DNA from: Candidatus Saccharimonadota bacterium
GTDB lineage: Bacteria > Patescibacteriota > Patescibacteriia > 2-12-FULL-60-25
DNA length: 32,000 bases
Direction: 5' to 3'
Assembly (NCBI GenBank): GCA_963718585.1
Contig: OY970357.1
Coordinates: 630,001-662,000 of the forward strand
Shown: positions 2,595 through 26,774 of the stretch, piece after piece
How the letters are laid out: each line of letters begins with the position of its first letter
Numbering within the stretch: the first letter of the stretch is position 1
Program-made: the position numbers and the translations under genes
Notes under the pieces: generated by a model
Seen by the model: only the letters and a program-made list of their open reading frames with translations
The model's database searches: none
Told to the model about the DNA's origin: nothing

Positions 2595-2661
2595 GTCCGA
2601 TACCTTACGGGAAAACCCAGTTTTTTTGTAGTCTTAAGTCCACCCCTTCCTCCCGCCTCCG

Positions 2662-2670: not shown

Positions 2671-2679
2671 ATCCGCCAT

Positions 2680-10333: not shown

Positions 10334-10350
10334 AAGCAGACAATTAGCAT

Positions 10351-11186
10351 CTAGCTTCTAGATTCTTTTTTCGGGCTCCCCACTTCCCATTTGATGTCGA
10401 TCCCTTGGGAATCGACCAGATCGTTATTATAGGTTTCCGCAGCGGTCAGGACCGAGAGGTCCACACCGTTCGCTTTGGCGAGTTGGATGATGGAGCGCGT
10501 GTCCTTCGGAAGGCACTTCCCGCCATACCCGCGATATCCCTGGTAGAAGACCTCCAGATGCATGGGCCCGATCCATTGCTCCGCACCCGCGCATTCCTTC
10601 ACATGATCATAGTCCACGCCGAGCTTCTGGCAGAGGTCGTACATCTGATTCGCGTACGCGACCTTGAGCGCGTAGAACGCGTTGCCGAAATACTTCACGA
10701 GCTCCGCTTCTTTCGCGGGGATGATCTTTTCGAACGGCGCGCGGGGCAACAGCCCCATGACGAGCTCTGCATCACGACGACTTTGCGGGGTGTAACCGAC
10801 GATCTGCCTGATTCGGATGCTGCATGTCGTGGTCCACCGTGGATTCGGTCAGAAACTCCGGATTGAAAAGCAGACGGTGTTTTGGATACATCTCCTGGAA
10901 CCGATCCGTCGTGCCTGGCAGGATGGTGGATTTCAACACGACCCTCTTCCCCTCTCCCGGGATCGCATCCAACGCCGCGCGCAAAAACGAATCATCGAAT
11001 CCGCGTGCCATCGAGATAATACGGCGTAGGCACGGCCACGAAGATCACGTCGGCATCGCGGAGCACGGTGACGTCATCCAACCCTTTCGGCGGGTCGTAG
11101 AGTCCTGCCTCGATGTCCTGGGTCTTGAAGTACCGGTCGAGGGCTCCCCCGACCATCCCGGTCCCCATGATGGCGATGCGTGGCAT
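10351..11186 (-). pseudogene. UDP-glucose/GDP-mannose dehydrogenase-family gene interrupted by two frameshifts
   Basis: Three consecutive minus-strand ORFs lie in three different frames: 10992..11186, 10772..11011 and 10351..10758. Together they spell one co-linear dehydrogenase. The first gives MPRIAIMGTGMVGGAL...VFVAVPTP (Rossmann fold). The second gives ...VVLKSTILPGTT...FNPEFLTES. The third gives ...AELVKYFGNAF...GYGGKCLPKD (catalytic Cys). The breaks are near 11006..11012 and 10807..10813. Confidence 0.7.
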
Positions 11187-11193
11187 AGATGGT

Positions 11194-13095
11194 TCAAAAT
11201 CCAGGATGGATGGATTTTAACGTCCGGACCGCCTTCAAAAATCCTTCGCCGCCGAACTTATGTCCTTGCCAGATCTCAGGAAGGAACCAGACATCCGTCT
11301 TGACCAGAATGTCCAAGAGCTTCTTGAAATCCACACTCCCGTCGCCGATCTGCAGGCCCTCGCCGCCGAAGCCGGCTGCATCCGAGATATGAATGTACCG
11401 AGTAACGGGCAGGATGGTCTCCGCATATTCGATCAAGTCCTTCTTGTAATAATTGCAGAAGAGACCGGCGTGAGATGTATCAAAGACCACGCCATGCCCC
11501 GATCGACGTGAGAAGTCGACGATCTCCGAGCTGTCCATGAAGGACGCGTGCCACCACTGCCCGCCGAAATACCAGGGGCACGCCGGCATGTTCTCGACGA
11601 GAATCTCAAAACCCTCTCCATTCAGTTCCTTCAGGGACTTCAGCAATTGATCGTTGAGCCTGTCGATCTCCTTCAGCAGAGGCCGCTCCATATTCATCCC
11701 ACCCGGATGGACTACAAATTTGATGCGGTCGTTCCCGTTTTTGAATATATTCTTCAAATGCCGTCCATGTTCGAGCGTTTTGTTGAAGAATGCAACCGTA
11801 TAAGCGCGCTTGCGCTCATCAAGACTCGAGAGGTTGAGCAGGACGTCTCCGTCATATTCCGGCGCATGGATGACTAAATCCCGATCATAGCTCGCCGGAT
11901 TCACGACGTCATTGTTCACGTCACTATCACTCAAGTGGATCTCGACATACGGAGACTGACAGGCAAGCAATCCATCAATATCACACATCCGCGCGACGAC
12001 GCCCCAGTGGTGCTTGATGTCCGGAGTGGCCTCCAGGACGGCGTCCGCGGTCTGGATGTCGGATTCCAACAGATAATCATCCGTGTCTAAGTCGCGTGTG
12101 AGGAGTTTTTTTCCGATGAAGAGATCGATCTTGAGCGGACTTGTCCCCTTCCCCGGACTTTTGACACCGATGTCGTCCGGCGTTAAAACGTGTCCTTTCT
12201 TGAGCGGATGCGCTGCGACGAGCGATTTGGCCAGATTCTCCCGATTCAGGAACTCCCCGCGAGACGGGAAACGTGCCGTGTCGCCTAATGCCTGTTCCAC
12301 AATCCGCACATTCTTGACCATCCCTGCGAATTCATCCGGCGTCAGACTCGCCTTATGGTCGGGTCCGGGCATCTCCCTGTCGAACGTCAGATGTTTCTCG
12401 ATGACGCGCGCGCCGAGTGCAACGGCCGCAACTGCCACGCCGATACTCTGATCATGACCGGAAAACCCGACCGGACGCTGCGTCTTCTCCCGGAGCTTCT
12501 TCAAAAAATTCAGGTTCAGATCATAAAACGGTGCCGGATAAGTACTGTTGCAGTGAAGCATTACAAACGATGCGCCGAGACGTTCGAGTTCATCGACGAC
12601 CTGCCAGATCTCCGTAACGTACGACATACCGGTCGAAACGATCAGCGGCAGACCCGTCGCCGCGGCCGCGCGGATCAAAGGCAGATTACTCATGTCCGGA
12701 GAGCCGATCTTGAGCGCTGGGACGCCTAGCGACGTGATGAAACCGAGACTTTCGATATCCCACGGTGTACACATGAAATCAATCCCCTGCTCCGTTGCAT
12801 AACGCTGTAGCTCCCGCATATCATCATCGGATAACTCACACTTGATGATGTGATCCATCAGATACTGAAGCGCGTGCTCCTGCTGGTCTGGCCGTTCAAG
12901 AACCTTTTCCTGATAGAGATGTTTCAACGACCGCTTTTGGAACTTCGCGCAATCCGCGCCGACCCGGACGGCTTCGTCGATGAGGCGCTTGGCAAGCGAA
13001 ACGTCGCCCTGATGGTTCAGACCGATCTCTGCGATTATGTAGACGGGCTGACCATCTCCGATGATCCGATTCCCGATATGGACTTCCTGTTTCAT
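11194..13095 (-). CDS. Three-domain fusion: NeuB-type PEP-condensing sugar-acid synthase + SAF domain + xylose-isomerase-like TIM barrel (AP_endonuc_2-like)
   Basis: 633 aa. N-terminal NeuB signature: PVYIIAEIGLNHQGDVSLAKRLIDEAVRVGADCAKFQK...VGFSGHD. The middle SAF-like segment is LVAAHPLKKGHVLTPDDIGVKSPGKG. The C-terminal ~270 aa carry TIM-barrel isomerase/epimerase motifs: VIHAP, FVVHPGG, ILVENM, FDTSHA, IHISD, PEIW. Confidence 0.8.
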   Translation of the reverse strand: MKQEVHIGNRIIGDGQPVYIIAEIGLNHQGDVSLAKRLIDEAVRVGADCAKFQKRSLKHLYQEKVLERPDQQEHALQYLMDHIIKCELSDDDMRELQRYATEQGIDFMCTPWDIESLGFITSLGVPALKIGSPDMSNLPLIRAAAATGLPLIVSTGMSYVTEIWQVVDELERLGASFVMLHCNSTYPAPFYDLNLNFLKKLREKTQRPVGFSGHDQSIGVAVAAVALGARVIEKHLTFDREMPGPDHKASLTPDEFAGMVKNVRIVEQALGDTARFPSRGEFLNRENLAKSLVAAHPLKKGHVLTPDDIGVKSPGKGTSPLKIDLFIGKKLLTRDLDTDDYLLESDIQTADAVLEATPDIKHHWGVVARMCDIDGLLACQSPYVEIHLSDSDVNNDVVNPASYDRDLVIHAPEYDGDVLLNLSSLDERKRAYTVAFFNKTLEHGRHLKNIFKNGNDRIKFVVHPGGMNMERPLLKEIDRLNDQLLKSLKELNGEGFEILVENMPACPWYFGGQWWHASFMDSSEIVDFSRRSGHGVVFDTSHAGLFCNYYKKDLIEYAETILPVTRYIHISDAAGFGGEGLQIGDGSVDFKKLLDILVKTDVWFLPEIWQGHKFGGEGFLKAVRTLKSIHPGF

Positions 13096-13115
13096 GAAAA
13101 AGATGGATGGTTAGC

Positions 13116-13943
13116 TTACCACAAGATGTACCCGCCATCGACCGTCAGATCGACGCCGGTCACGTAGGATGATGCCTCGGAGGCGAGATAGATCAATGCG
13201 CCAAGAAGATCTTCGGGTGACGCCATTCGGCCCATCGGTGTCCGATTCGCATACCGCTCGACGAACGCAGGATCGCTCCCTCCGTGCTGGACCCCTCCGG
13301 GCGAGATCGTGTTGACGCGGATCCCGTACGCGCCCCACTGGACGGCGAGGTCACGCGTCAGACGCACGAGCGCCGCTTTGGACGCTCCATACGATGCGTC
13401 TTTGACGAACGGCGGCAACCCTCTCTCTTCCCGGAACGCATACAGATGGGGATCCGGCGACACATGCGCATAGATCGAGGCGATGTTAATGATGGAGCCG
13501 GGAAGCCCGTCGCGCAAAAGCCGGACGGCGAACGCCTTCATACAGACCACGGCCGATGTGAGGTTCGCTCGGAAGACATCATCCCAGACCTCCAGCGGAT
13601 ACTTCTCGAACGGTAGGCCACCCTGTTGTGTCGCGTTCGGCGACGAACGCCATCCCGCGGCGTTCACAAGGATCGTCGGCGACCCCCAGGCCGCATGGAC
13701 GGCATCGAACGCGGCCGCAACGGCCTGTTCATCCGTCAATTCCGCATGATGCACCATGATAGTCCCGTTCGCGACGCCGGTCTGGACCTCCGCGGGGATG
13801 TCCGTCGCCCGATCGAAGATGGCGACGCGCGCGCCCGCATCCGCAAGCGCAAGAGCGAACGATGTTCCCAATCGTCCAAGACCGCCGGTCAGGACGGCGA
13901 TGCACCCATCCAAACGGAACGATGGTGTAGGAGATGAAGTCAT
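13116..13943 (-). CDS. Classical short-chain dehydrogenase/reductase
   Basis: 275 aa. Motifs: AVLTGGLGRLGTSFALALA (TGxxxGxG), LVNAAG, SYGASKAAL (YxxxK), ISPGGV. Confidence 0.85.
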   Translation of the reverse strand: MTSSPTPSFRLDGCIAVLTGGLGRLGTSFALALADAGARVAIFDRATDIPAEVQTGVANGTIMVHHAELTDEQAVAAAFDAVHAAWGSPTILVNAAGWRSSPNATQQGGLPFEKYPLEVWDDVFRANLTSAVVCMKAFAVRLLRDGLPGSIINIASIYAHVSPDPHLYAFREERGLPPFVKDASYGASKAALVRLTRDLAVQWGAYGIRVNTISPGGVQHGGSDPAFVERYANRTPMGRMASPEDLLGALIYLASEASSYVTGVDLTVDGGYILW

Positions 13944-13946
13944 AGG

Positions 13947-15044
13947 TCAGGACGCGAGGAGATGAGGAACGATCACGTCAGCCTCTTCAAGGAGGCCTAC
14001 GAGCTTATCGAAATTTTCCGGCGTCATGAGCCGGTCGTTCCCGTTGTCATATGCCTCTGTACAGATGTACTGGATCTTTCGGAGCAACTCGTCGACCAGA
14101 AGCACGGGCATCGCGGCGCGTTCATCAGACGTCAACGGCTCAACTGATTCATACGCAGACAAGAAGATCCGGATCCCTTCCGGGAGGGTCTCTTCCCACG
14201 GCTGGCCCGACGCCACGACGAATTGACGCACGAATCGATGACACGCGTTCGCGACGTCGCGGGCACGTGCTCCCGGACGGATCGTGTCGAAATCCAGGAT
14301 CGCTCGTAGCGTATCTCCGTCAAAGATCGTGTTCAACGGGTGGAGATCACAGTGGATAGGCTGGAGCGGAAGGACCGGAGCGGGTTGGGACTCCGCACGA
14401 CGCATCGCCGCATCGATGCGGTCCCACGCGGACAAGAAGCGCTCGTCGATCTCCCAGCCGCCGGAGACGGCGCGTGCGTGGATGGAACCCAGCGTCGTGC
14501 GTTCCCACGGTGGCAGGATCCCGGATCCACTCGCCGGGACCGCGAACGCCGGCAGCTCCCGCATCGCCACATGCATCTTTGCGATGCCCTTCCCGACCTC
14601 CACGAGTTGTCGCAGGGTTCCGTGATAATGGTCCCCAGGGATGTAATCGAATGCCTCGAAGAGCGCAACGCCTTTGCCGACGACGGAACCGTCCACCGTC
14701 CGGACGACCTGCGGGACGGCAACGCCTGCGCGATGAAGCCGGGACAGGATGTCCGCAAGCTGTTCGACGCGCGCCGGATCGGAAATAAGGATATGCTTAC
14801 GGATGATCAAGACGACCTCTTCGCCTCCAACGACACCGCGGACGCGGAAGTTGTTGCTCATCCGCTCCCATTCCTCGACTTGTTCCACGGAATGGACCTC
14901 TGTGAATCCGTAGAGGTCGTGCGCCGTTCGCGAGATCATCAAAAAGGTATCCGGGGAGACCGGCTTCCATGTGACGGTGGAGACGCTGTGATTATTCGGC
15001 TGAAACAGGCGATCTGCGACCGAAGTCTCGGCATGGGCTGGCAT
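13947..15044 (-). CDS. APH/choline-kinase-fold phosphotransferase (small-molecule or sugar kinase)
   Basis: 365 aa. The Brenner/APH motif is PIHCDLHPLNTIFDGDTLRAILDFDTI (HxDxxxxN ... DFD). The start is 3 nt upstream-adjacent to the SDR, which suggests an operon. Confidence 0.7.
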   Translation of the reverse strand: MPAHAETSVADRLFQPNNHSVSTVTWKPVSPDTFLMISRTAHDLYGFTEVHSVEQVEEWERMSNNFRVRGVVGGEEVVLIIRKHILISDPARVEQLADILSRLHRAGVAVPQVVRTVDGSVVGKGVALFEAFDYIPGDHYHGTLRQLVEVGKGIAKMHVAMRELPAFAVPASGSGILPPWERTTLGSIHARAVSGGWEIDERFLSAWDRIDAAMRRAESQPAPVLPLQPIHCDLHPLNTIFDGDTLRAILDFDTIRPGARARDVANACHRFVRQFVVASGQPWEETLPEGIRIFLSAYESVEPLTSDERAAMPVLLVDELLRKIQYICTEAYDNGNDRLMTPENFDKLVGLLEEADVIVPHLLAS

Positions 15045-15050
15045 GTGGCG

Positions 15051-15079
15051 ACTCTACCAAAGATCGGCCCATATTTCAA
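15051..15079 (-). promoter_or_regulatory. Sigma70-type promoter TTGAAA-17-(TGg)TAGAGT for the kinase operon; the transcript is predicted to be leaderless
   Basis: The minus strand reads TTGAAAtatgggccgatctttggTAGAGTcgccacATG. It has a near-consensus -35, a 17-nt spacer and a TGn-extended -10. The -10 ends 6 nt before the start codon at 15044, and there is no SD. Confidence 0.5.
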
Positions 15080-15101
15080 CGGTTCGTGCTACCATGTCGG
15101 C

Positions 15102-15725
15102 ATGCCGCAAAAAGGCGCAACAAACCCAAGGATCACGACCATCCTGTTCGACTGGGCGGGGGTCTTTTGTTCGCCGGGCGAGCCCTTTTCCCATCCACGA
15201 ATGTTAAAAGAATTGGGTATGACCCCCGAAGAGATGGAACGGCGCGTCCACGGCCTCTATCGCAGATACTATCGCGGGACCGTGACCAGCTCGGCCTTCT
15301 GGCGCAGTGTGATCTCTACATTCGGTCTCAAGGGTTACACGATCAAAGAATTGAATGAGGCCTACCTTCGATCGTATCGCCTCTACCCGGGCGCGCTCGC
15401 CATCCCGTCGCGGCTCCGAACGCGCTACACCGTCGCACTCATCTCGAACTTGACCGATGAGATGATGCGCCACATCGTCCGGACGCACGATCTAAAAAGA
15501 CGATTCGATGCGCTCTTCTTCAGCAACCGGCTCGGCATGATGAAACCGGAACCGCAGATGTTCCGTCATGTCCTGCGCTCCCTCCATGCACGACCGGAAG
15601 AGACACTGTTCATCGACGATACGCGTTCCAATATCGCGGCCGCGAAAACACTGGGCATGCGCACGATCCATTGTCGTTCGGCCGCGCAGTTGAAGCGCGA
15701 CCTCGGACGCCACGGCCTGATCTAG
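15102..15725 (+). CDS. HAD-superfamily hydrolase (subfamily IA-like phosphatase)
   Basis: I trimmed the track ORF 14340..15725 to the ATG at 15102; the upstream part is antisense to the kinase. Motifs: ILFDWAGVF (motif I, with Ala at Asp+2), ALISN (motif II), KPEPQMF, LFIDD (motif IV). An extended -10-like TGcTACCAT sits at 15087..15095, 6 nt upstream. Confidence 0.8.
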   Translation: MPQKGATNPRITTILFDWAGVFCSPGEPFSHPRMLKELGMTPEEMERRVHGLYRRYYRGTVTSSAFWRSVISTFGLKGYTIKELNEAYLRSYRLYPGALAIPSRLRTRYTVALISNLTDEMMRHIVRTHDLKRRFDALFFSNRLGMMKPEPQMFRHVLRSLHARPEETLFIDDTRSNIAAAKTLGMRTIHCRSAAQLKRDLGRHGLI

Positions 15726-17026
15726 GGTCGAACGTACCGCGGAGCCACGACCGGCCCTTCGAGAAGCGACGAAAGATCTCCGGCGGCACGGGCCTTTGCC
15801 ATACGCTCGAAGATCGCATCATAGGTCTCCAAGACCGTCTCGATATCGTCCGCGGTGTGAGAAAAACTGACGAAGTGCTTCGTATTCGTCAGGATCCCGG
15901 CCTTGGCCGTCTCCTGCAGGAAATAGGTCTTCAGCTCAAGATCGTCCACGCCATGTTCGTCCTTGAACGAAAGGATCGGATGCGGTCCGGATCCCTGGAC
16001 GCGCAATGGAAGTCCGTGCGTCGCGACAAGCTCTCGCATGCCTTCAAGGAGCCGCGTTCCGAGCTTCCAGAGATGTCCCGGGACATCTTGCGCTTCCATC
16101 AGGTCCAAAACGGCGAGTGCGGCGGCGATACTCGGGAGATATCCCGCGTACGTGAAGGAGAAGAAGACCTCGTCCAAGGCCCGCATGATCTCCGCCTTGC
16201 CGGCGAGGACGGACAACGGCTCACCATTGCTGATGGCCTTCCCATAGCAGACGAGATCGGGTTGGACACCGAAATATTCGGCGGCGCCGCCTCGGGCAAA
16301 ACGGAATCCCGTGATGAGTTCGTCGAAGATCATGACCGCCCCGTGCTTTGTTGCCAAGTCCCGAACCCCTGGCAGGAATCCTTCTTCAGGGAAGACCGTG
16401 TCCATCGGCTCCATAATCACAGCCGCGATCTGTCCCGGATGCGCTTCGAAGACACGTTCGAGGGATGCGAGATCGTTGTAGGTGAAGTCATGGGTCAGGT
16501 CGATCACGGCCTGTGGAACACCTTTATTCCGCATGCGATTCGTCGCGATCGTCCAGTCCTGCCACCCGTGATATCCACACTTTGCGACGTGATCCCGTCC
16601 GGTGTATGCACGCGCGACGCGGATGGCCGCGGCGGTCACGTCCGATCCGTTCAGACCGAAGCGCACCATCTCCGCGAACGGGATCCCGTCGCGCAGACGT
16701 TCCGCGAGCTCGATCTCACGCGATCCGGGCAGACCGAAGATCGTCCCCTGCTCCCGCTGGGCACGGATGGCCGACTCGATCTCCGGGTACCGATGCCCGA
16801 GCGAGACAGCCCCCAGCGAACAGGTCATGTCCAGATAGGCGTTGCCGTCGACATCCCACACCTGCGCGCCTTCGCCTCGCGCGATCGCATATGGAGAGAT
16901 CCCGTGGACGAACTGGTCCGGTGCCTTGCTCAAGGTCTGCGCCCCGCGCGGGATCACATCCTTCGCACGGCGGAGCAGGTCTTCGGAACGCGACAATCCC
17001 CTTGACATAGACGGATACGATATCAC
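15722..17026 (-). CDS. Class III PLP aminotransferase, glutamate-1-semialdehyde aminomutase (HemL)-like
   Basis: 434 aa from a GTG start at 17026, which forms a GTGA overlap with the upstream stop. The alternative ATG at 17008 gives MSRGLSRSEDLLRRAKDVIPRG. Motifs: FGLNGSDVTAAAIRVARAYTGR, MIFDELITGFRFARGGAAEYFGVQPDLVCYGKAISNG (PLP Lys). Confidence 0.85.
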   Translation of the reverse strand: MISYPSMSRGLSRSEDLLRRAKDVIPRGAQTLSKAPDQFVHGISPYAIARGEGAQVWDVDGNAYLDMTCSLGAVSLGHRYPEIESAIRAQREQGTIFGLPGSREIELAERLRDGIPFAEMVRFGLNGSDVTAAAIRVARAYTGRDHVAKCGYHGWQDWTIATNRMRNKGVPQAVIDLTHDFTYNDLASLERVFEAHPGQIAAVIMEPMDTVFPEEGFLPGVRDLATKHGAVMIFDELITGFRFARGGAAEYFGVQPDLVCYGKAISNGEPLSVLAGKAEIMRALDEVFFSFTYAGYLPSIAAALAVLDLMEAQDVPGHLWKLGTRLLEGMRELVATHGLPLRVQGSGPHPILSFKDEHGVDDLELKTYFLQETAKAGILTNTKHFVSFSHTADDIETVLETYDAIFERMAKARAAGDLSSLLEGPVVAPRYVRP

Positions 17027-17865
17027 CTTGACCCAGGTTCGTCGCGATACTGCTCCTCCCCGACCGTTTTGAGCTGGCCTTTGGCATTCCGGTACCAGTT
17101 CACCCCCGCGTACGCGTGATTGATGGCCTGGATCTCTGGATGTTCGCCCAGCAGCCGTAGCACATCATCCATATCGAAATCTGGTTTGCCTTTGAATGCT
17201 CGGAGGACTGCCTTCAAAAATGCGGCATCTTCCGGATAATCGAGGGTCCAGCGCTGGGTCATGAACATGTTCCCACGCGGATTCTCAACGTTGCCGATGC
17301 GGAACCGGTCCGGCTGATCCCAGATGAACGGGAACGTATGCTCGCGCTCATACGGCTTTTTCGCCTCGTTCCATGCGATCTCCAAGACCGAAAACGAGCA
17401 TCCTTCCACATCCATCCCATCTGGGAAGGTCGGCGGATGATAGTTGCTGACATAATCGTACCGATCCGGATGATCAAACCAGAGGCCGATGACCGAATCG
17501 ATGAGCTTTGGATCCGCCAACGGACAGTCCGACGGGATCTTCACGATAAAATCCGCGCGGTACTGCTTCGCCGCCTGATAGTGACGGTCCAGCAAGTCCG
17601 TCTCACTCCCGCGAAAGACGTCGATCCCCCGCACTTTGCACAACTCGGCGATCCGATTATCTTGCGGCTGTTCCGTAGTGATCACCACAACCTGATCCAC
17701 GGTTTTCGCCCGTCGAATCCGGGAGACCTCGATCTCCAGGAGCGTCTTCCCATCAACCTCTTCCAGGACTTTTCCGGGGAGCCGCGTGCTGCCCATGCGA
17801 GCCTGGACTAAGACAATCACGAAGAATTTCTTATCGGATGACTTGAAAATCTCATGCTCGAGCAT
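17023..17865 (-). CDS. Cytidylyltransferase of the NeuA/KdsB/SpsF family (CTP_transf_3-like)
   Basis: 280 aa. Motifs: VLVQARMGSTRLPGKVL (the signature aRxgSxRlpgK), VDQVVVITT, KIPSDCPLADP. Confidence 0.8.
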   Translation of the reverse strand: MLEHEIFKSSDKKFFVIVLVQARMGSTRLPGKVLEEVDGKTLLEIEVSRIRRAKTVDQVVVITTEQPQDNRIAELCKVRGIDVFRGSETDLLDRHYQAAKQYRADFIVKIPSDCPLADPKLIDSVIGLWFDHPDRYDYVSNYHPPTFPDGMDVEGCSFSVLEIAWNEAKKPYEREHTFPFIWDQPDRFRIGNVENPRGNMFMTQRWTLDYPEDAAFLKAVLRAFKGKPDFDMDDVLRLLGEHPEIQAINHAYAGVNWYRNAKGQLKTVGEEQYRDEPGSR

Positions 17866-18727
17866 AGGCGATGATTGTGTCAGTCAGATTTAACGCAGAC
17901 AATCGATCCTGATATGCCTCCGCGAGAGATGGGGAATTCAGGAAGGACCACGTCACATGACCTCCGGGAAGGTTCTTCGCGAGCCAATAGAGATGATTCG
18001 AGACGGGATACCGCTGAACAGCTTCAACGACGACATCGGTAAAACCTCCCGCTCGTAAGAACGCTGCAAGGGATTCCCGCGTATGCAGGATCAAGTGCTG
18101 GCTCCAAAACGTGAACTCTTTAAAAGACTCATGGTCGAAAGCCGAAAGCAGGAGATCCCCCGCATGAGGAACTTCGACGATTAAGCACCCGCCAGGCACC
18201 ATCTTGGCGCGAATGGAATGAAGGACGGCGATCGGATCGAAAAGGTGTTCGAACACGTGGAACAGCGAAACCACATCGATATCAGACGGCGCATCACCGA
18301 TGTGCGCAAAAACGTCAAACCCCTCACGACACAAGGCATTCCGCACGTCATCCTGAAGTTCCGTCGCAAGAATTCTTTTTGCTACGTCCCGGAGAACGCA
18401 GAGCTGACCTCCATTTCCCGTACCGAAGTCAAGCCATGTCTTGTTCGCGATGAGAGGCCTCAACAAATCCGCTCGACGCTGAAAATCCTCAAAACCGTTC
18501 TGACGCGCTTCCGCGAGCGAAGTGGATGACCAATACGAGCATCCTTCCATTTTTTGATAGACCTCTTCCGTCGCATGATCCGAAGACTCCAAAAGGATCA
18601 CACCAGACTTCGAACACCGTAAGACGCCGATTTTGTCGGAATCCCGAACATGATCGGCTATCGCGACGAGCGAATCGGGACGAGAAATGCCGAGCGTGAC
18701 TAGGGTTTCGCGAAGAGAATCGCTCAT
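17852..18727 (-). CDS. Class I SAM-dependent methyltransferase
   Basis: 291 aa. Motif I: [12 protein letters not shown]. Also [15 protein letters not shown] and [12 protein letters not shown]. The start forms an ATGA overlap with the gmd stop. Confidence 0.75.
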
Positions 18728-19764
18728 GATGTGCTAGACTTCTTTCGCTCTTCGTTCATCATCAAACGGGCGAGCTCAGCGAATTTCGTCTTCGCCTTCC
18801 ACCCAAGGACGCGTTCCGCCTTCGACGCGTCACCGACCAACAGGTCCACTTCCGCGGGTCGGAAATAGTACGGGTCGATTCGCACGACGACCTTACTGGT
18901 CGCGCGATCGACCCCCTTCTCGTCGAGCCCTTCTCCCTGCCAATCCAGTTCGATACCGACATGACGGAACGCCGCTTCGACAAACTCCTTCACCGTATGC
19001 GTCTCGCCGGTGGCGATAACAAAATCATCAGGCTCCGGTTGCTGCAGCATAAGCCACATTGCTTCGACATATTCCTTGGAATAGCCCCAGTCGCGTTTGG
19101 CATACAAATTCCCGAGATAGAGACAATCCTGCTCTCCGGCGGCGATGCGTGCGACCGCCATAGTAATCTTTCGGCTCACGAAGTTCTCCCCGCGGCGCGG
19201 TGATTCGTGGTTGAAAAGGATACCCGAGCACGCGAACATTCCGTACGCCTCACGATAATGTCTGGTCAGCCAATGAGCATAGACTTTTGCAATACCGTAG
19301 GGACTGCGAGGATGCAAAAGCGTCTTCTCTGTTTGCGGAGACTCCGCGACCTTGCCAAACATTTCGCTGGTCGATGCCTGATAGAACTTGGTCATATCGG
19401 TCTTCCCGAGCATACGAACAGCTTCGAGCAATCTGAGTGCCCCAAGGGCATTCACATCGCTGGTATATTCCGGCGTATCAAAAGAAATGCGTACGTGACT
19501 CTGGGCGGCAAGGTTATAGATTTCATCCGGCTCGATCTTTCGAATGAGCTGTAATAGATTCGATGAATCCGTCAGATCACCATAATGCAAAAAGAAAGAC
19601 GCATCCTTCACATGCGGGTCCATGTATAGATGCTCAATATTCCCGATATTCATCACGCTCGAGCGTCGGATGAGCCCATGGACCTCGTACTCTTTGGAGA
19701 CGAGCAACTCCGCCAGATATGATCCGTCTTGTCCGTTTATGCCGGTAATGAGAGCTTTCTTCAT
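18724..19764 (-). CDS. gmd: GDP-mannose 4,6-dehydratase
   Basis: Motifs: [36 protein letters not shown]...[39 protein letters not shown] chose the ATG at 19764; the track ORF begins at a TTG at 19791, 9 codons upstream. Confidence 0.9.
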
Positions 19765-19846
19765 AGCATTTTTGTCAAGAGACCCTATCAAAAAACGGAC
19801 GATCAGGCAAGTGGCGAGGTATTAGAAAGATCATAGTGTCTTTGAC

Positions 19847-21346
19847 TCAACCAAGACCAGCCCGGCTTGCATTCTGAATACCCAATTCGCGCAAGATGGA
19901 GAGAAGCGTCCCCCAAGGACCGTTACGTTTCCATTGCCACTGGAATAGGATGGTCATGAAATAGACCACGACGATCAATCCGACTCTGAGGAGGTCCATC
20001 ACAGGCGTCTCCGTGGGGAAGAGCTGCCGAAGGATCAGGTCCACGCACAGCGTCACGCCGCCGGCCGCGAATAGCGCGGAGATCGCGGGATAGAACGCGT
20101 GCTTGTTGATCTGCAGGACTTTCCGGGCGCGCAGGACGACGTATCCGAGCAGGATGATCCAGGTGACCACGATCGCACCCGCAAGCCCGTTCAAACCGTA
20201 TCGCCAGAATCCCAGGACCATGAGTGGGACGGAAAATGCGGTCTGGATCATGTTGACCTTGAAGTTCAGATCCGGACGGCCGATCGCACCGAACACGGGC
20301 GCGACGGCGCGAACGAAGGCAAGGAAGAGGTTCCCGAAGGCGAAGATCTTGAGCGGGACCACGATCCCGAGCCACTTCGGTCCAAGGAGGAGCGTGACGA
20401 TCGCACCGCCCTCCAAAAGGACGAAGAGCGCTGCCGGCACGCTCGTGATCAGCAGCACGTCGATGCTTTTCACGAAACCGATACGGACTTTTTCCATCTG
20501 ATCCTGGACCTTCGCATAGGCGGGAAGGCCGATCTTACCGAGTAATGCCCCGATCGTCGCCGTCGCCGTCGAGGCGAGATCTTTCGATTTCGCGTAGATG
20601 CCGAGTTCAGCCGGCTGGAGCATGCGCCCGACGAATAGCTTATCGAATTGAGAGAGAGCGAAATCCAAAAGCTCCTGTCCGTACACCCATTTACTATAGC
20701 CGATCAGCTCCCGGAGGACGCCCAGCCGCACAGAGAACCGCGGGCGACTGGGATACAAAACGTAACTGATCGCCATACCCGCGATGTTCTGCACCACGTA
20801 GCCGACGAAGAGCGCCCATGCCGACCGGTCAACGAACACCGCGTATCCGATGGCGACTAAGGCATAGGCAGACTGCGCGACCATGTCGCGGATGAACACC
20901 TTGAAAAAATCGAGATCGCGAAAAAAATAGATCTGTCGGACATTTCCAAGCGCCGGGATCAAGATGAGCAGGCCGCTCAAGCGGACGAGAAGAACAAATG
21001 GACCTGTGATGTGGAAGAATCCGCTTATCGCGCCGCCGCCGATGAACAGGAGGATAGCGAGGAACGCTGCGCGGAGGACGTCGAACGTCCACGAGGGGTC
21101 AAGATACGTCTCGACGGATTCCTTCCGCTGGAGGAGCGCATCACCGAACGGGAAGGCGGTCAGCTGATTCGCGAGACCGATCAGGAGGACGACGATCGTG
21201 ATGACGCCATAATCAGACGGCAAAAGCAGCCGCGCCAATACGAAAAACGTGACGAGACTTACGGACTTTTGTCCGAAGACGCTCGCCAGGTACCAGGTCC
21301 CACTCCGAATGGACCGTCGGTAGACTCCTTTTTCGTCCGTAGGCAT
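19847..21346 (-). CDS. Wzx-type oligosaccharide flippase (MOP superfamily polysaccharide biosynthesis protein)
   Basis: 499 aa, about 12-14 hydrophobic helices throughout. The N-terminus, SGTWYLASVFGQKSVSLVTFFVLARLLLPSDYGV, is typical of Wzx/polysaccharide biosynthesis proteins. Confidence 0.75.
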   Translation of the reverse strand: MPTDEKGVYRRSIRSGTWYLASVFGQKSVSLVTFFVLARLLLPSDYGVITIVVLLIGLANQLTAFPFGDALLQRKESVETYLDPSWTFDVLRAAFLAILLFIGGGAISGFFHITGPFVLLVRLSGLLILIPALGNVRQIYFFRDLDFFKVFIRDMVAQSAYALVAIGYAVFVDRSAWALFVGYVVQNIAGMAISYVLYPSRPRFSVRLGVLRELIGYSKWVYGQELLDFALSQFDKLFVGRMLQPAELGIYAKSKDLASTATATIGALLGKIGLPAYAKVQDQMEKVRIGFVKSIDVLLITSVPAALFVLLEGGAIVTLLLGPKWLGIVVPLKIFAFGNLFLAFVRAVAPVFGAIGRPDLNFKVNMIQTAFSVPLMVLGFWRYGLNGLAGAIVVTWIILLGYVVLRARKVLQINKHAFYPAISALFAAGGVTLCVDLILRQLFPTETPVMDLLRVGLIVVVYFMTILFQWQWKRNGPWGTLLSILRELGIQNASRAGLG

Positions 21347-21418: not shown

Positions 21419-22942
21419 ATGACTAAAAACATGGAACTTGGAAAAAAGGGATGTTTTATCCTTCAACGCCGCTTTGCATACATCGGACACGACATCGCGG
21501 TCCATCTCAAAGAACGGTATGGGCTCACGAATTTTTGTGGGTATGTCTTCACGCGCCCGAGCTACACGTTCCTCCGGTCCCAGAAGGATATCGTCTACAC
21601 GCATCTACTCCTCGATGAAGACATAGACGCATCGGAGCCAGTAGATCATGTATATCTCGTGTGGCTCGAAAAAGAGTATGGTCTCCCTTACCTCTGGCCG
21701 TACCTAGCTGTGGACCGCATCCTCATGTCCGGACAGCTACTCCGAGAATATCCTTATGACAAACCGACACAGACACATGAAGAGATGCTTCGTTTCCTCC
21801 AAGCACGTGCTAAGGCGATCATCGCTTTCCTAGATCGGGAGAAACCCGACTACCTCTTCTGTTCCGCGATCGGCGCCGTGGGAAGCTATCTCCTATACGC
21901 GATCGCGAAAAAGCGCGGGATCACGATCTGTGACGTCCTGCCGACCCTGATCCGCGACCGGTACATCGTGAGTGATAGTCCATTCACCTTCACGACAGTG
22001 GATGCCCGATACCAAGACCTCACGGAGGCGGACCTCCAAAGCCCGGCGGGCAAAGAGGCCGCAGAATTCCTCAAGACGTTCCGGGAACAGCCGAAGCCGT
22101 GGCTCGCGAAACTCGATCCCTCGATCCAGGCCGTCTCGCGCCGCAAGCAGTTCGCATTCCTCCGTCCATCCAAGGCGTACAAGTGGATCCGTACGTTCTC
22201 ACGCACCGTCCGGGCGTATTATACGAACGATGTCCGCTCCGATTATTCGACGATCAGTCCGTGGAACTATCTGAAAGACGTCCTTAAGCGACGACTCCGG
22301 AACATCATCGGCGTCGATGATCTCTATGACCCGTTCGATCCCAAGACGGATTTCGCCTTCTTTCCGCTTCATCTGGAACCGGAGATCGCGCTATTGCTCC
22401 AGGCACCATACCAGACGGACCAGGCGCACCTCATCCTGCAGATCGCCCGGTCACTCCCCGTGCAGTATACGCTGTACGTGAAGGACCACCCCCAGATGGT
22501 GGAGTTCCGCCCACGCGCCTTCTACGAGCGGATCAAGAAGATGCCGAATGTGAAGCTCATCGATCCGTCGATCAAGAGCTTCGACATCATCCCGCATGCC
22601 AAGCTCATCACGACGATCACCGGGACCGTCGGATGGGAAGCGACCCTGCTCAAAAGGCCGGTCATTTCATTCGGACACTGGTTCTACAACGCGCTCCCCA
22701 TGGTCAAACGGAACTCTGAGATGGAACGTCTGCCATCCCTCATACGTGAACAGCTGGATGCCTTTGCATATGATGAGGTCGCCTTGCATAAATATCTGAC
22801 GGCGCTCTTCCAGGATTCGGTTGTATCGAATCTTCACCAGCTTTGGGAGGACGAGACGGATCAGGAAAAGAAACAACGCGGCGTGAGGCGGATCGCAGAT
22901 GCGATCGCGCGGCACCTTGGAATCGGATCCGTACACACATAG
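21419..22942 (+). CDS. Capsule polysaccharide biosynthesis (KpsC/KpsS-type, Capsule_synth-like) protein; putative ulosonic-acid transferase
   Basis: I trimmed the track ORF 21011..22942 to the ATG at 21419; the upstream part is antisense to the flippase. The pattern FFPLHLEPEIALLL...DQAHLILQIARSLP...LYVKDHPQM...LITTITGTVGWEATLLKRPVISFG matches, from memory, the Capsule_synth layout (L-H/Q-x-x-D/E ... K-x-HP ... T-x-x-S/T-x-x-G-x-E-A). Confidence 0.45.
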   Translation: MTKNMELGKKGCFILQRRFAYIGHDIAVHLKERYGLTNFCGYVFTRPSYTFLRSQKDIVYTHLLLDEDIDASEPVDHVYLVWLEKEYGLPYLWPYLAVDRILMSGQLLREYPYDKPTQTHEEMLRFLQARAKAIIAFLDREKPDYLFCSAIGAVGSYLLYAIAKKRGITICDVLPTLIRDRYIVSDSPFTFTTVDARYQDLTEADLQSPAGKEAAEFLKTFREQPKPWLAKLDPSIQAVSRRKQFAFLRPSKAYKWIRTFSRTVRAYYTNDVRSDYSTISPWNYLKDVLKRRLRNIIGVDDLYDPFDPKTDFAFFPLHLEPEIALLLQAPYQTDQAHLILQIARSLPVQYTLYVKDHPQMVEFRPRAFYERIKKMPNVKLIDPSIKSFDIIPHAKLITTITGTVGWEATLLKRPVISFGHWFYNALPMVKRNSEMERLPSLIREQLDAFAYDEVALHKYLTALFQDSVVSNLHQLWEDETDQEKKQRGVRRIADAIARHLGIGSVHT

Positions 22943-26772: not shown

Positions 26773-26774
26773 GA

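What the first reader, a model, noticed from the sequence alone, without database searches (positions are those of the whole stretch)
11194..19791. Candidate non-canonical CMP-ulosonic-acid pathway built on kinase/phosphatase logic
Two tightly packed minus-strand gene strings contain the core parts of a nonulosonic/ulosonic acid pathway but lack the usual accessory enzymes.

String 1 is gmd, a methyltransferase, an SpsF/NeuA-type cytidylyltransferase and a HemL-like class III aminotransferase, joined by ATGA and GTGA overlaps. String 2 is an APH-fold kinase, a classical SDR and the NeuB-SAF-TIM fusion. A HAD hydrolase diverges from the kinase.

The characterised bacterial Neu5Ac, pseudaminic and legionaminic routes use PseB/LegB-type dehydratases, DegT-type aminotransferases, N-acetyltransferases and hydrolysing 2-epimerases. 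I could recognise none of these here.

A kinase and a HAD phosphatase next to a NeuB-type synthase is the logic of phosphorylated-substrate routes, such as animal Neu5Ac-9-P or the Bacteroides Kdn-9-P synthase/phosphatase. Adding Gmd, a class III aminotransferase and a methyltransferase suggests an aminated and/or methylated deoxy-ulosonic acid made by an undescribed route.

An alternative reading is that these are separate pathways: a GDP-6-deoxyhexose branch and a phospho-substituent branch of the LicA/LicC type.
Basis: partly seen in the sequence, partly recalled or inferred. Interest (0 to 1): 0.7.

Follow-up and report, generated by a model that had tools for sequence, protein, structure and literature searches.

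The report
Phospho-sugar route to a sialic-acid-like sugar
An uncultured ultra-small (CPR) bacterium carries a conserved gene cassette that most likely makes a CMP-activated, probably aminated or methylated sialic-acid-like surface sugar through phosphorylated sugar intermediates, as animals do, but using unrelated enzymes that nobody has tested.

Summary

The cassette is not a chance grouping. A Candidatus Uhrbacteria genome carries the same nine genes in nearly the same order (43-76% identity).

Gene fusions in relatives tie the parts together: cytidylyltransferase-NeuB-SAF(-TIM) and HAD-kinase.

The kinase family is small (26 homologues). In 9 of the 10 contexts I could read, a NeuB synthase lies nearby; in the tenth the contig ends at the neighbouring aminotransferase.

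The synthase domain is about 41% identical to human NANS, which uses sugar 6-phosphates, and about 30% identical to classical bacterial NeuB. Its closest unfused relatives have a KdsC-type phosphatase exactly where the TIM domain is fused here.

The "kinase/phosphatase logic" is therefore supported. Three qualifications apply:
- Gmd is not a constant member and probably serves a separate GDP-6-deoxyhexose branch.
- The LicA/LicC reading is rejected.
- The NeuB-TIM fusion, with a neighbouring cytidylyltransferase and aminotransferase, was noted in Leptospira in 2012, together with the same untested phosphorylated-route proposal.

The product and the order of steps remain unknown. I rate this a new variant of a known kind, of moderate interest.

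The parts
12046..13095 (-). NeuB + SAF domains (aa 1-350) of the 633-aa fusion: a NANS-like PEP-condensing ulosonic-acid synthase
   Evidence: Pfam NeuB 269 bits and SAF 39 bits. TIGR03569 scores 327 bits, below its cut-off of 399.65. PEP and metal residues are conserved. It is 41% identical to human NANS (sequence recalled from memory) and about 30% to NmNeuB. An NJ tree places it beside the NANS and HAD-C0-linked synthases.
11194..12033 (-). C-terminal xylose-isomerase-like TIM-barrel domain of the same protein. Proposed to be a metal-dependent phosphoesterase (ulosonate-9-P phosphatase); alternatively a sugar(-phosphate) epimerase.
   Evidence: AP_endonuc_2 72 bits. A profile search hits MJ1311/3wqo at 3e-14, then Endo IV at 0.018. 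The model has pLDDT 92. Foldseek returns MJ1311, UlaE and ketose 3-epimerases, with Endo IV at rank 30. The HPG, EN, DTSH and H..D motifs align with Endo IV H109, E145, D179/H182 and H216, while D229/H231 are absent. The domain occupies the position held by a C0 HAD gene in unfused relatives.
13116..13943 (-). Classical SDR oxidoreductase (KduD / gluconate-5-dehydrogenase-like). Proposed sugar or ulosonate alcohol oxidation that creates the carbonyl for transamination.
   Evidence: adh_short_C2 158 bits. The best NCBIfam neighbours are sugar-acid dehydrogenases, all below cut-off. It sits next to the kinase in the window, L002, L085 and the P0123 locus, and next to kinase-HAD in L084 and L088.
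13947..15044 (-). APH-fold small-molecule kinase. Proposed sugar kinase; regiospecificity unknown.
   Evidence: PF01636 76 bits. HxDxxxxN and DFD motifs are intact. Only 26 homologues reach E<=1e-10, and two of them are HAD-APH fusions. NeuB lies nearby in 9 of 10 contexts examined; in L089 the contig ends at the aminotransferase next to the kinase gene.
15102..15725 (+). HAD-IA hydrolase (YihX / epoxide-hydrolase-N-terminal-like, motif I FDWAGV without Asp+2). Proposed sugar-phosphate phosphatase.
   Evidence: Hydrolase and HAD_2 domains. TIGR01509 scores 60 bits, above its cut-off of 29.4. It is 62% identical to the L002 HAD and 39% identical to the HAD half of the HAD-APH fusion P0146.
15722..17026 (-). 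Class III (HemL-like) PLP aminotransferase. Proposed amination of a sugar aldehyde or ketone.
   Evidence: Aminotran_3 162 bits. NF004856 scores 374 bits, below its cut-off of 486. PDB neighbours after the GSA aminomutases are the aminopentol aminotransferase and the aminoglycoside C-6' aminotransferases. It is translationally coupled to the cytidylyltransferase here and in L085. It is 51% identical to the aminotransferase next to the HAD-APH fusion in L089.
17023..17865 (-). SpsF/KdsB-type cytidylyltransferase (CMP-ulosonate synthetase)
   Evidence: CTP_transf_3 84 bits. The best PDB hit is the uncharacterised 'cytidylyltransferase' 6oew at 5e-45, followed by KdsB structures. Relatives are fused to NeuB-SAF-TIM (P0075) and to NeuB-SAF (P0123 locus). 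A NeuA-type cytidylyltransferase lies in 44 of 70 fusion loci, typically directly adjacent to the fusion.
17852..18727 (-). SAM-dependent methyltransferase. Possible O- or N-methylation of the sugar; assignment uncertain.
   Evidence: Methyltransf_23 64 bits. A methyltransferase is present in the cassette in L002 and directly after the fusion in L085.
18724..19791 (-). GDP-mannose 4,6-dehydratase, probably a separate GDP-6-deoxyhexose branch of the same polysaccharide locus
   Evidence: TIGR01472 scores 563 bits, above its cut-off of 415. It is present in the window and L002 only among the kinase loci.
19847..21346 (-). Wzx/MOP flippase of the polysaccharide locus
   Evidence: Polysacc_synt_3 200 bits; NF007773 157 bits.
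21419..22942 (+). Capsule_synth (KpsS/KpsC-like) protein, the candidate transferase for the CMP-activated ulosonic acid
   Evidence: PF05159 31 bits, above its cut-off of 20. Weak hit to the BFO_1060 glycosyltransferase family, E 1e-4. Homologues flank the cassette in L002 (56% identical) and L085 (two copies), and follow the fusion in 9 other loci.

Best explanation
This is one biosynthetic module inside a Wzx-dependent polysaccharide locus of a CPR (Uhrbacteria-like) bacterium. It makes a CMP-activated nonulosonic (Kdn/neuraminic-type) acid through sugar-phosphate intermediates rather than the NDP-sugar intermediates of the Pse and Leg routes.

Proposed flow. Every step is inferred; none is shown.
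1. The APH-fold kinase phosphorylates a free hexose.
2. The NANS-like NeuB-SAF domain condenses a hexose 6-phosphate with PEP to give an ulosonate 9-phosphate.
3. The phosphate is removed by the fused Endo IV/MJ1311-like TIM domain. I put this role at about 50%. The HAD-IA hydrolase assists or replaces it.
4. The SDR oxidises one alcohol, and the class III aminotransferase converts the resulting carbonyl to an amine. This could happen on the hexose phosphate before condensation (kanosamine NtdC/NtdA/NtdB-like logic) or on the ulosonate afterwards (Kdo8N KdnB/KdnA-like logic).
5. A methyltransferase may methylate the sugar.
6. The SpsF-type cytidylyltransferase makes the CMP-sugar.
7. The divergent Capsule_synth-like protein transfers it, and Wzx exports the unit.

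Gmd is not part of this module. It supplies a GDP-6-deoxyhexose for the same polymer.
For: 1. Synteny. The same nine genes occur in a Cand. Uhrbacteria MAG at 43-76% identity (31% for the methyltransferase). CT-AT-APH-SDR-(cupin)-NeuB/SAF/TIM-MT ... Capsule_synth occurs in a Magasanikbacteria contig that has no gmd.

2. Fusions. CT-NeuB-SAF-TIM (P0075, 902 aa). CT-NeuB-SAF. HAD-APH twice, with two different HAD types (P0141 and P0146).

3. The kinase family has only 26 members at E<=1e-10. NeuB is nearby in 9 of the 10 contexts read. In the tenth (L089) the contig ends at the aminotransferase next to the kinase gene.

4. Two relatives carry the complete animal-like set. L088 has GFO-APH-HAD(C0)-SDR-NeuB-NeuC ... 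CT. The P0123 locus has HAD | cupin-APH-SDR-AT-[CT-NeuB-SAF]-NeuC.

5. The synthase domain is 41% identical to human NANS over its full length (the NANS sequence was recalled from memory) and about 30% to NmNeuB. In an NJ tree the TIM-fused synthases are sister to a clade holding NANS, the HAD-C0-adjacent synthases and the kinase-associated synthases, with canonical NeuB outside. Human NANS, B. thetaiotaomicron and P. parvum synthases use Man-6-P or ManNAc-6-P (PMC6200933, read).

6. TIM as phosphatase:
- In six of the closest unfused relatives a KdsC-like C0 HAD gene starts 0-70 nt after NeuB, exactly where the TIM domain is fused.
- A HAD is present in 6 of 6 kinase loci with a TIM-less NeuB but in only 2 of 3 with TIM.
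- The invariant HPG, EN, DTSH, H..D and E residues reproduce the Endo IV Zn1/Zn2 ligands.
- CT + fusion alone is the recurrent minimal pair: 44 of 70 loci and Ensifer canadensis pT173e. With Man-6-P as substrate that pair would be a complete pathway.

7. The aminotransferase's structural relatives include sugar C-6' aminotransferases. The aminotransferase and an aldehyde dehydrogenase alternate in otherwise similar cassettes, which suggests a shared carbonyl intermediate.

8. All catalytic motifs are intact.
Against: - No step has been shown biochemically, and the substrate, the product and the order of steps are unknown.
- The characterised sugar kinases of the APH fold that I recall (NahK, MtnK; from memory) phosphorylate the anomeric position, not O-6. 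The window's HAD is YihX-like; E. coli YihX is a glucose-1-phosphatase (NF006991 hit; enzyme function from memory). The kinase/HAD pair might therefore act on C-1.
- Foldseek ranks ketose 3-epimerases and UlaE above Endo IV for the TIM domain. Two of the nine Endo IV ligands (D229, H231) are missing.
- Both NeuC-containing kinase loci lack TIM, and only 1 of 70 TIM loci has a NeuC-like gene. That pattern fits equally well a TIM role in supplying the substrate.
- If TIM is the phosphatase, the HAD in the window is unexplained.
- The window shows no source of a free hexose for the kinase: there is no NeuC.
- The NANS comparison rests on a sequence recalled from memory, and the tree is an unbootstrapped NJ tree.
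- Gmd is translationally coupled to the methyltransferase at the head of the string, so excluding it is an inference from its absence elsewhere.
Confidence: 0.55

Rival explanations
1. The pathway is the same, but the TIM domain is not a phosphatase. It is a metal-dependent sugar(-phosphate) epimerase or isomerase that supplies the manno-configured aldose to the fused synthase. Examples would be GlcNAc-6-P to ManNAc-6-P, or epimerisation next to a carbonyl made by the SDR or GFO enzyme, as in YcjS/YcjR. In that role it functionally replaces NeuC. The HAD is then the only ulosonate-9-P phosphatase.
For: - Top Foldseek hits are the MJ1311 'tagatose 3-epimerase-like' protein, UlaE (a sugar-phosphate 3-epimerase), psicose and tagatose 3-epimerases, and YcjR.
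- The E-D-H-E metal ligands of that family are present.
- The two kinase loci with NeuC lack TIM, and only 1 of 70 TIM loci has a NeuC-like gene.
- GFO/IDH/MocA or SDR oxidoreductases accompany many fusion loci.
- The window keeps a HAD even though it has TIM.
Against: - The invariant His residues on beta2 and beta3 (HPG) match the Endo IV Zn1 ligands. As far as I recall, ketose 3-epimerases lack them.
- Most fusion loci would then have no phosphatase at all.
- L085 has TIM and the kinase but no HAD within 10 kb.
- TIM occupies the position of the C0 HAD gene of unfused relatives.
Confidence: 0.3
2. The locus holds separate pathways that merely share a polysaccharide locus. CT + NeuB-TIM make a plain CMP-Kdn-type sugar. 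Gmd makes a GDP-6-deoxyhexose. Kinase + SDR + AT + HAD make an unrelated free amino sugar or amino-alcohol substituent by a kanosamine-like sugar-phosphate route. That product never enters the synthase.
For: - CT + fusion occurs alone in most genomes.
- Dehydrogenase + aminotransferase + HAD is the logic of the kanosamine pathway (from memory).
- In L089 the aminotransferase, the HAD-APH fusion and GFO genes are seen with no NeuB in the 10 kb available.
Against: - The kinase family is tied to NANS-like synthases in 9 of 10 contexts, across very different gene orders.
- The L089 contig starts at the aminotransferase, so NeuB may lie just upstream.
- The aminotransferase is translationally coupled to the cytidylyltransferase. 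It neighbours the cytidylyltransferase in the Leptospira nonulosonic-acid cluster, where the NeuB-TIM gene follows it (PMC3438082), and in a Legionella O-antigen cluster that also holds a neuB (PMC3694923).
Confidence: 0.2
3. A GDP-sugar route analogous to legionaminic acid. Gmd makes GDP-4-keto-6-deoxymannose. The class III aminotransferase aminates C-4. The Endo IV-like TIM domain hydrolyses the nucleotide. NeuB then condenses the free 4-amino-4,6-dideoxyhexose with PEP to give a 7-amino-7,9-dideoxy ulosonic acid.
For: - Gmd heads the string and is conserved in the closest relative.
- Campylobacter makes legionaminic acid from GDP-linked precursors (from memory).
- Endo IV is a phosphodiesterase.
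- TIM and the hydrolysing epimerase NeuC tend to be mutually exclusive.
Against: - Gmd is absent from the seven other kinase loci. That includes L085, which has the CT, aminotransferase, kinase, SDR and NeuB-TIM.
- The route leaves the kinase and HAD without a role.
- Known GDP-4-keto-sugar aminotransferases are DegT-type, not class III.
- The synthase is NANS-like.
Confidence: 0.08
4. A LicA/LicC-type phospho-substituent branch. The kinase phosphorylates an amino alcohol, the cytidylyltransferase makes a CDP-alcohol, and the result is unrelated to the synthase.
For: - A kinase plus a cytidylyltransferase is the LicA/LicC logic.
- The cytidylyltransferase has a borderline NTP_transf_3 hit (29.8 bits against a cut-off of 27).
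Against: - The cytidylyltransferase is CTP_transf_3 (84 bits), and its nearest named structures are KdsB enzymes.
- Homologous cytidylyltransferase domains are fused to NeuB.
- The kinase matches APH and homoserine-kinase-II models, not choline kinase.
- The kinase travels with NeuB, SDR and HAD rather than with the cytidylyltransferase.
Confidence: 0.03

Closest known systems
Phosphorylated-substrate sialic acid/Kdn pathways: animal GNE-NANS-NANP-CMAS, and Bacteroides thetaiotaomicron BT1714 (Kdn-9-P synthase) with BT1713 (C0 HAD phosphatase); also Prymnesium parvum (PMC6200933)
   Same: - A NANS-like synthase (41% identical to human NANS, recalled sequence).
- A kinase before and a phosphatase after the condensation step, followed by a CMP synthetase.
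- The closest unfused relatives keep the synthase + C0 HAD gene pair.
   Different: - The kinase is APH-fold, not ROK/GNE-type.
- The window has no C0 HAD. Instead it has a fused Endo IV/MJ1311-like TIM domain and a YihX-like HAD-IA.
- It adds an SDR, a class III aminotransferase and a methyltransferase.
- The window has no UDP-GlcNAc 2-epimerase.
Leptospira interrogans nonulosonic-acid cluster, genes YP_002102 to YP_002104 (Ricaldi et al. 2012, PMC3438082)
   Same: - A NeuB fused to an 'endonuclease-like' C-terminal domain, next to an aminotransferase and a CMP-NulO synthetase.
- The authors proposed an animal-like phosphorylated route in which the fused domain acts as the phosphatase.
   Different: - The paper does not report the kinase, SDR or HAD as part of the Leptospira cluster.
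- I could not retrieve the Leptospira sequences to test orthology.
- The proposal remains untested.
Kanosamine pathway NtdC/NtdA/NtdB (Bacillus subtilis) and Kdo8N pathway KdnB/KdnA (Shewanella); both recalled from memory
   Same: Oxidise one sugar alcohol and then transaminate it. In the kanosamine pathway this happens on a sugar 6-phosphate, and a HAD phosphatase finishes the sequence.
   Different: - The enzymes are non-homologous here: a classical SDR instead of a GFO or iron-ADH enzyme, and a class III instead of a DegT-type aminotransferase.
- The product here is coupled to a PEP-condensing synthase.
MJ1311 (PDB 3wqo) and endonuclease IV
   Same: - The TIM domain's best sequence and structure match is MJ1311.
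- It shares the HPG, EN, DTxH, H..D and E metal-ligand motifs with Endo IV.
   Different: - It lacks the Endo IV D229/H231 (Zn3) ligands. As I recall, MJ1311 keeps all nine.
- It is fused to a sugar synthase.
- There is no evidence of DNA binding.
Canonical bacterial Neu5Ac, legionaminic and pseudaminic acid pathways
   Same: A NeuB-family synthase with a SAF domain, a CMP synthetase, and a polysaccharide-locus context.
   Different: - The window has no PseB/LegB dehydratase, DegT aminotransferase, N-acetyltransferase or hydrolysing 2-epimerase.
- The synthase scores below the NeuB and PseI equivalog cut-offs.
- NmNeuB Arg314, which contacts the acetamido group, is Ser here.

Membership tests
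NeuB/NANS alpha-carboxyketose (nonulosonic acid) synthase family | NeuB TIM-barrel domain plus C-terminal SAF (AFP-like) domain | tested here: met
   PF03102 scores 269 bits (cut-off 22.1) and PF08666 39 bits (cut-off 21). Foldseek top hits are NmNeuB, PseI and SpsE.
NeuB/NANS alpha-carboxyketose (nonulosonic acid) synthase family | PEP- and metal-binding residues (NmNeuB E25, K53, Q55, K129, S132, H215, H236, D247) | tested here: met
   E23, K51, Q53, K129, S132, H214, H235 and D246 are invariant across 14 family members and align with NmNeuB.
N-acetylneuraminate synthase sensu stricto (TIGR03569) / pseudaminic acid synthase (TIGR03586) | Score above the curated equivalog cut-off | tested here: not met
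   327 bits against a cut-off of 399.65, and 208 bits against 340.25. NmNeuB R314 is replaced by Ser.
Phosphorylated-substrate (animal/Bacteroides-type) sialic acid pathway | Synthase of the NANS / Kdn-9-P synthase lineage | tested here: inconclusive
   41% identity to human NANS against about 30% to NmNeuB, and NJ clustering with NANS and the HAD-C0-linked synthases. The NANS sequence was recalled from memory, the tree has no bootstrap, and BT1714 was not available.
Phosphorylated-substrate (animal/Bacteroides-type) sialic acid pathway | Synthase accepts hexose 6-phosphate and not the free hexose | not testable with these tools
   Requires an enzyme assay.
Phosphorylated-substrate (animal/Bacteroides-type) sialic acid pathway | Dedicated C0-type HAD (YrbI/KdsC-like) ulosonate-9-P phosphatase | tested here: not met
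   The window has no Hydrolase_3/C0 HAD. Its HAD is HAD-IA variant 3. C0 HADs are present in unfused relatives.
Phosphorylated-substrate (animal/Bacteroides-type) sialic acid pathway | Hexose 6-kinase upstream of the synthase | tested here: inconclusive
   An intact APH-fold kinase is present and genomically tied to NeuB. Its substrate and regiochemistry are unknown.
LicA/LicC phosphocholine activation pair | Choline-kinase-family kinase plus LicC-type (NTP_transferase) cytidylyltransferase, independent of any ulosonate synthase | tested here: not met
   The kinase matches APH and homoserine-kinase-II models. The cytidylyltransferase is CTP_transf_3/KdsB-like, and its relatives are fused to NeuB.
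Endonuclease IV | Nine conserved ligands of the trinuclear zinc centre | tested here: not met
   Equivalents of H109, E145, D179, H182 and H216 are aligned. An E261 equivalent (E607) is inferred from the PEIW motif but lies outside the aligned range. The H69 equivalent (H410) is ambiguous. D229/H231 fall in a deletion (the Endo IV sequence was recalled from memory).
Ketose 3-epimerase / UlaE branch of the xylose-isomerase-like TIM barrels | E-D-H-E single-metal site and epimerase fold | tested here: inconclusive
   The fold matches at TM 0.58-0.67 and E 1e-9 to 1e-8. E501, D539, H569 and E607 are present, but the extra invariant His residues point to a second metal.
GDP-mannose 4,6-dehydratase (Gmd) | TIGR01472 equivalog score above cut-off | tested here: met
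   563 bits against a cut-off of 415.
Glutamate-1-semialdehyde 2,1-aminomutase (HemL) | Score above the HemL equivalog cut-offs | tested here: not met
   TIGR00713 scores 259 bits against 527, and NF004856 scores 374 against 486. The context is a glycan locus, not haem synthesis.

The most novel reading that the evidence does not exclude
CPR bacteria, and through the NeuB-TIM core hundreds of other species, make nonulosonic acids by a route that runs entirely at the sugar-phosphate level. An APH-fold sugar kinase and an Endo IV-like TIM-barrel phosphatase fused to a NANS-like synthase replace the animal GNE kinase and NANP. In this locus an SDR/class III aminotransferase/methyltransferase add-on yields a structurally new amino- or methyl-nonulosonic acid.
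Probability: 0.4. Interest if true: 0.65.

Novelty: new variant of a known kind. Interest (0 to 1): 0.52.

Why it matters
Sialic-acid-like sugars shape how microbial surfaces are recognised. Their known bacterial routes all start from nucleotide sugars, apart from the Bacteroides Kdn pathway.

Here a NANS-like synthase fused to a TIM barrel is found in at least 595 species-level genomes. These span CPR, Chloroflexota, cyanobacteria, rhizobia, actinobacteria, Nitrosomonas and a haloarchaeon. No member has been characterised.

If the fused domain is a phosphatase, it would be a new enzyme solution for ulosonate-9-P hydrolysis. It would also mean that the 'animal-type' phosphorylated route is widespread in bacteria.

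The kinase-SDR-aminotransferase-HAD add-on could reveal a new amino-nonulosonic acid on the surface of CPR bacteria, whose envelope chemistry is almost unknown. Cultured carriers of the core pair make the idea directly testable: Ensifer canadensis T173, Bradyrhizobium, Rothia mucilaginosa and Nitrosomonas eutropha.

Tried and rejected
- Literature searches for the gene combination (GSA aminomutase + cytidylyltransferase + NeuB; CPR + nonulosonic acid; MJ1311) found no characterised locus. The large NulO-synthase phylogeny paper does not mention the fusion. The SugarBase preprint does not address it.
- The whole-protein fold search was dominated by the NeuB domain and said nothing about TIM, so I remodelled the TIM domain alone.
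- I first labelled 9419-10333 as Rmd-like. NCBIfam shows it is GalE/TviC-like and below every cut-off, so the fate of the Gmd product inside the window is unresolved.
- A plasmid search found only one full-length fusion (Ensifer canadensis), in an unannotated record.
- I considered a HemL-type aminomutase reaction on an amino sugar, a methionine-salvage-like reading (APH kinase + HAD + cupin + aminotransferase) and a kinase/phospho-lyase pair (hydroxylysine kinase/AGXT2L-like). The kinase hits the fused APH-aminotransferase model NF004800 only at E 6e-4. None has specific support, so I did not pursue them.
Orthology to those loci is therefore untested.

Full report
**1. What is in the sequence**

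| Coordinates | Strand | Product |
|---|---|---|
| 11194-13095 | - | 633-aa NeuB + SAF + AP_endonuc_2 (xylose-isomerase-like TIM) fusion |
| 13116-13943 | - | classical SDR |
| 13947-15044 | - | APH-fold kinase |
| 15102-15725 | + | HAD hydrolase, diverging from the kinase |
| 15722-17026 | - | HemL-like class III aminotransferase |
| 17023-17865 | - | CTP_transf_3 cytidylyltransferase |
| 17852-18727 | - | methyltransferase |
| 18724-19791 | - | bona fide Gmd (TIGR01472, 563 bits, cut-off 415) |

The ATGA and GTGA overlaps are real. The catalytic motifs of the synthase, kinase, SDR, aminotransferase and HAD are intact.

The rest of the window is a large Wzx-dependent polysaccharide locus. It holds a priming phosphotransferase, GT1, GT2 and GT4 enzymes, six methyltransferases, a Wzx flippase at 19847-21346, and a divergent Capsule_synth (KpsS/KpsC-like) protein at 21419-22942.

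I found no DegT aminotransferase, N-acetyltransferase or NeuC/LegG-type epimerase in the window.

The exact protein is on record on a 1.08-Mb NCBI/ENA contig. The nearest relative is a Candidatus Uhrbacteria MAG.

**2. Is it one unit?**

The Uhrbacteria relative carries Capsule_synth, gmd, CT, MT, AT, a divergent HAD, APH, SDR and NeuB-SAF-TIM. Identities are 43-76% (31% for the methyltransferase), and the order is almost the same.

Fusions in relatives link the parts:
- P0075 is CT-NeuB-SAF-TIM in one 902-aa protein.
- The P0123 locus has a CT-NeuB-SAF fusion.
- P0141 and P0146 are HAD-APH fusions built from two different HAD types.

The kinase family is small, with 26 proteins at E<=1e-10. 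I could read ten contexts, and nine have a NeuB nearby.

| Locus | Arrangement |
|---|---|
| window, L002 | full cassette |
| L085 (Magasanikbacteria) | CT-AT-APH-SDR-cupin-NeuB/SAF/TIM-MT ... Capsule_synth; no gmd, no HAD |
| L084 (Saccharibacteria) | NeuB-APH-HAD(C0)-SDR |
| L088 | GFO-APH-HAD(C0)-SDR-NeuB-NeuC ... CT, plus a second, NANS-like NeuB with its own CT |
| P0123 locus | HAD \| cupin-APH-SDR-AT-[CT-NeuB-SAF]-NeuC |
| L086, L087, L090 | SDR (L087 and L090 only), HAD, aldehyde dehydrogenase, transketolase/DXS-like, APH, with NeuB and a cupin |
| L089 | AT (51% identical to ours)-[HAD-APH]-EamA-GFO-GFO-MT; contig starts at the aminotransferase |

The constant set is kinase + HAD + a NANS-like NeuB (+ CT), with an SDR in most loci and GFO oxidoreductases in L088 and L089. 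The aminotransferase alternates with an aldehyde dehydrogenase plus a thiamine enzyme.

Gmd occurs only in the window and L002. I therefore treat it as a separate GDP-6-deoxyhexose branch of the same polymer.

**3. The synthase and its fused domain**

The NeuB-SAF-TIM architecture is widespread. At least 595 hits were found in a one-genome-per-species collection. They include CPR, Chloroflexota, cyanobacteria, Bradyrhizobium, Ensifer, Nitrosomonas eutropha, Rothia, Nocardioides, Rathayibacter and Natronococcus.

In 44 of 70 loci a NeuA-type cytidylyltransferase lies nearby, typically directly adjacent to the fusion. In Ensifer canadensis pT173e the two stand alone. The kinase, HAD and aminotransferase are not general partners.

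The synthase domain scores below the NeuB and PseI equivalog cut-offs. It is about 30% identical to NmNeuB.

In an unbootstrapped NJ tree the TIM-fused synthases are sister to a clade containing NANS, the kinase-associated synthases, and a set of unfused synthases. Six of those unfused synthases are followed within 0-70 nt by a KdsC-like C0 HAD gene. Synthase followed by a C0 HAD is the Bacteroides Kdn-9-P synthase/phosphatase arrangement. Human, Bacteroides and Prymnesium synthases use 6-phosphorylated sugars (PMC6200933).

**4. What does the TIM domain do?**

Sequence evidence. The best solved relative is MJ1311 (3wqo), at profile E 3e-14, followed by Thermotoga Endo IV at 0.018.

Structure evidence. 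A confident model (pLDDT 92) matches MJ1311, UlaE, ketose 3-epimerases, TTHB071 and YcjR. Endo IV comes at rank 30. All matches have modest TM scores of 0.58-0.67.

Active-site evidence. Family-invariant residues are H410, H463 (HPG), E501 (EN), D539/H542 (DTSH), H569/D572 and E607. A profile alignment to E. coli Endo IV (sequence recalled from memory) matches H109, E145, D179, H182 and H216. D229/H231 fall in a deletion. The E-D-H-E site of the epimerases is therefore present, plus the extra histidines of Endo IV's Zn1 site, but not Zn3.

Three context observations favour a phosphoesterase role:
- TIM sits where the C0 HAD gene sits in unfused relatives.
- A HAD is present in 6 of 6 kinase loci with a TIM-less NeuB but in only 2 of 3 with TIM.
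- CT + fusion would be a complete pathway if Man-6-P is the substrate.

This is what Ricaldi et al. (2012, PMC3438082) proposed for the Leptospira fusion. That fusion sits next to an aminotransferase and a CMP-NulO synthetase.

Three observations argue the other way:
- Epimerases rank higher in the fold search.
- Both NeuC-containing kinase loci lack TIM, and only 1 of 70 TIM loci has a NeuC-like gene.
- The window keeps a HAD as well as TIM.

I put phosphatase at about 50% and sugar(-phosphate) epimerase/isomerase at about 35-40%.

**5. The add-on module**

The aminotransferase's nearest structures, after the GSA aminomutases, are the aminopentol aminotransferase and the aminoglycoside C-6' aminotransferases. 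These enzymes aminate aldehydes or ketones.

The SDR resembles sugar-acid dehydrogenases such as KduD and gluconate 5-dehydrogenase.

Kinase, then dehydrogenase, then aminotransferase, then HAD is the logic of kanosamine synthesis on a sugar 6-phosphate. Oxidation followed by transamination of a finished ulosonate is the Kdo8N logic. Both comparisons are from memory.

The alternation between aminotransferase and aldehyde dehydrogenase suggests a shared carbonyl, possibly aldehyde, intermediate. The translational coupling of AT and CT here and in L085 suggests the amination is close to the activation step. So does their adjacency in the Leptospira cluster and in a Legionella serogroup 6/12 O-antigen cluster that also contains a neuB (PMC3438082; PMC3694923).

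I cannot order the steps or name the carbon that is aminated.

The window's HAD lacks Asp+2 (FDWAGV). It is YihX-like. The characterised APH-fold sugar kinases I recall are anomeric kinases. An O-1 rather than O-6 phosphate cycle therefore cannot be excluded.

**6. Verdict**

- The 'kinase/phosphatase logic' around a NeuB-type synthase is the best reading.
- The LicA/LicC alternative is rejected. The cytidylyltransferase is KdsB/SpsF-type and is fused to NeuB in relatives, and the kinase travels with NeuB.
- Gmd is probably not part of the module.
- The core idea was already published for Leptospira, untested.

What appears undescribed is threefold:
- the APH-kinase/SDR/HAD(/AT) module tied to NANS-like synthases;
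- the evidence that the TIM domain displaces a C0 HAD phosphatase;
- the breadth of the fusion family.

This is a new variant of a known kind (phosphorylated-substrate nonulosonic acid synthesis) and of moderate interest.

Noticed in passing
window 10390-11177 (-): A UDP-glucose/GDP-mannose dehydrogenase gene between the NeuB-TIM gene and the GalE/TviC-like epimerase is split over three reading frames and truncated. Only the central domain survives as an ORF (10351-10758). It is either a pseudogene or the result of indel errors in the assembly.
   Followed up: partly
window 25003-26943 (-) and 27648-29495 (+): Two large proteins (646 and 615 aa) have 8-9 predicted membrane spans and no Pfam hit. 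The first is distantly related (21% identity, E 1e-19) to a 598-aa protein that sits immediately upstream of the cytidylyltransferase in the Magasanikbacteria cassette (L085 5845-7641). They may be polymerases or transferases of this glycan.
   Followed up: partly
window 17852-18727, 22948-23823, 26775-27740, 29473-30351, 31028-31933; possibly also 2605-3402: The locus has an unusually high density of SAM methyltransferases: five confirmed, including an FkbM-type enzyme right after the Capsule_synth gene. This suggests a heavily methylated polysaccharide.
   Followed up: no
window 6072-7949 (-): A 625-aa subtilisin-family (S8) protease is embedded in the polysaccharide locus, between sugar-nucleotide SDR genes and the priming glycosylphosphotransferase.
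   Followed up: no
L086 1140-4778; L087 5092-11098; L090 3074-9101: A second cassette variant keeps the kinase, HAD, cupin and a TIM-less NeuB, with the SDR in L087 and L090. It replaces the aminotransferase with an aldehyde dehydrogenase plus a transketolase/DXS-like thiamine enzyme. That points to a different, possibly chain-extended or carboxylated, ulosonic acid.
   Followed up: partly
L085 11958-12371; also L086, L087, L090 and the P0123 locus: A small cupin (about 135-145 aa) accompanies the kinase/NeuB cassette in five relatives but is absent from the window. It has a weak match (E 0.002) to DUF386/YhcH, a family from the E. coli sialic acid (nan) operon.
   Followed up: partly
L002 13066-19431 and the P0123 locus (genes at 9472-12179): A radical SAM/SPASM protein, a short SDR and a DAO-family flavoprotein recur just downstream of the cassette in two relatives. 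L002 also has a fused E1 dehydrogenase/transketolase-like protein. None of these is in the window.
   Followed up: no
L013 4091-5269; L016 4191-5435: Chloroflexota fusion loci carry a second cytidylyltransferase fused to a C0 HAD-like domain. This resembles the architecture I recall for vertebrate CMP-sialic acid synthetase. The same loci also have sulfate adenylyltransferase/APS kinase and GFO oxidoreductase genes.
   Followed up: no
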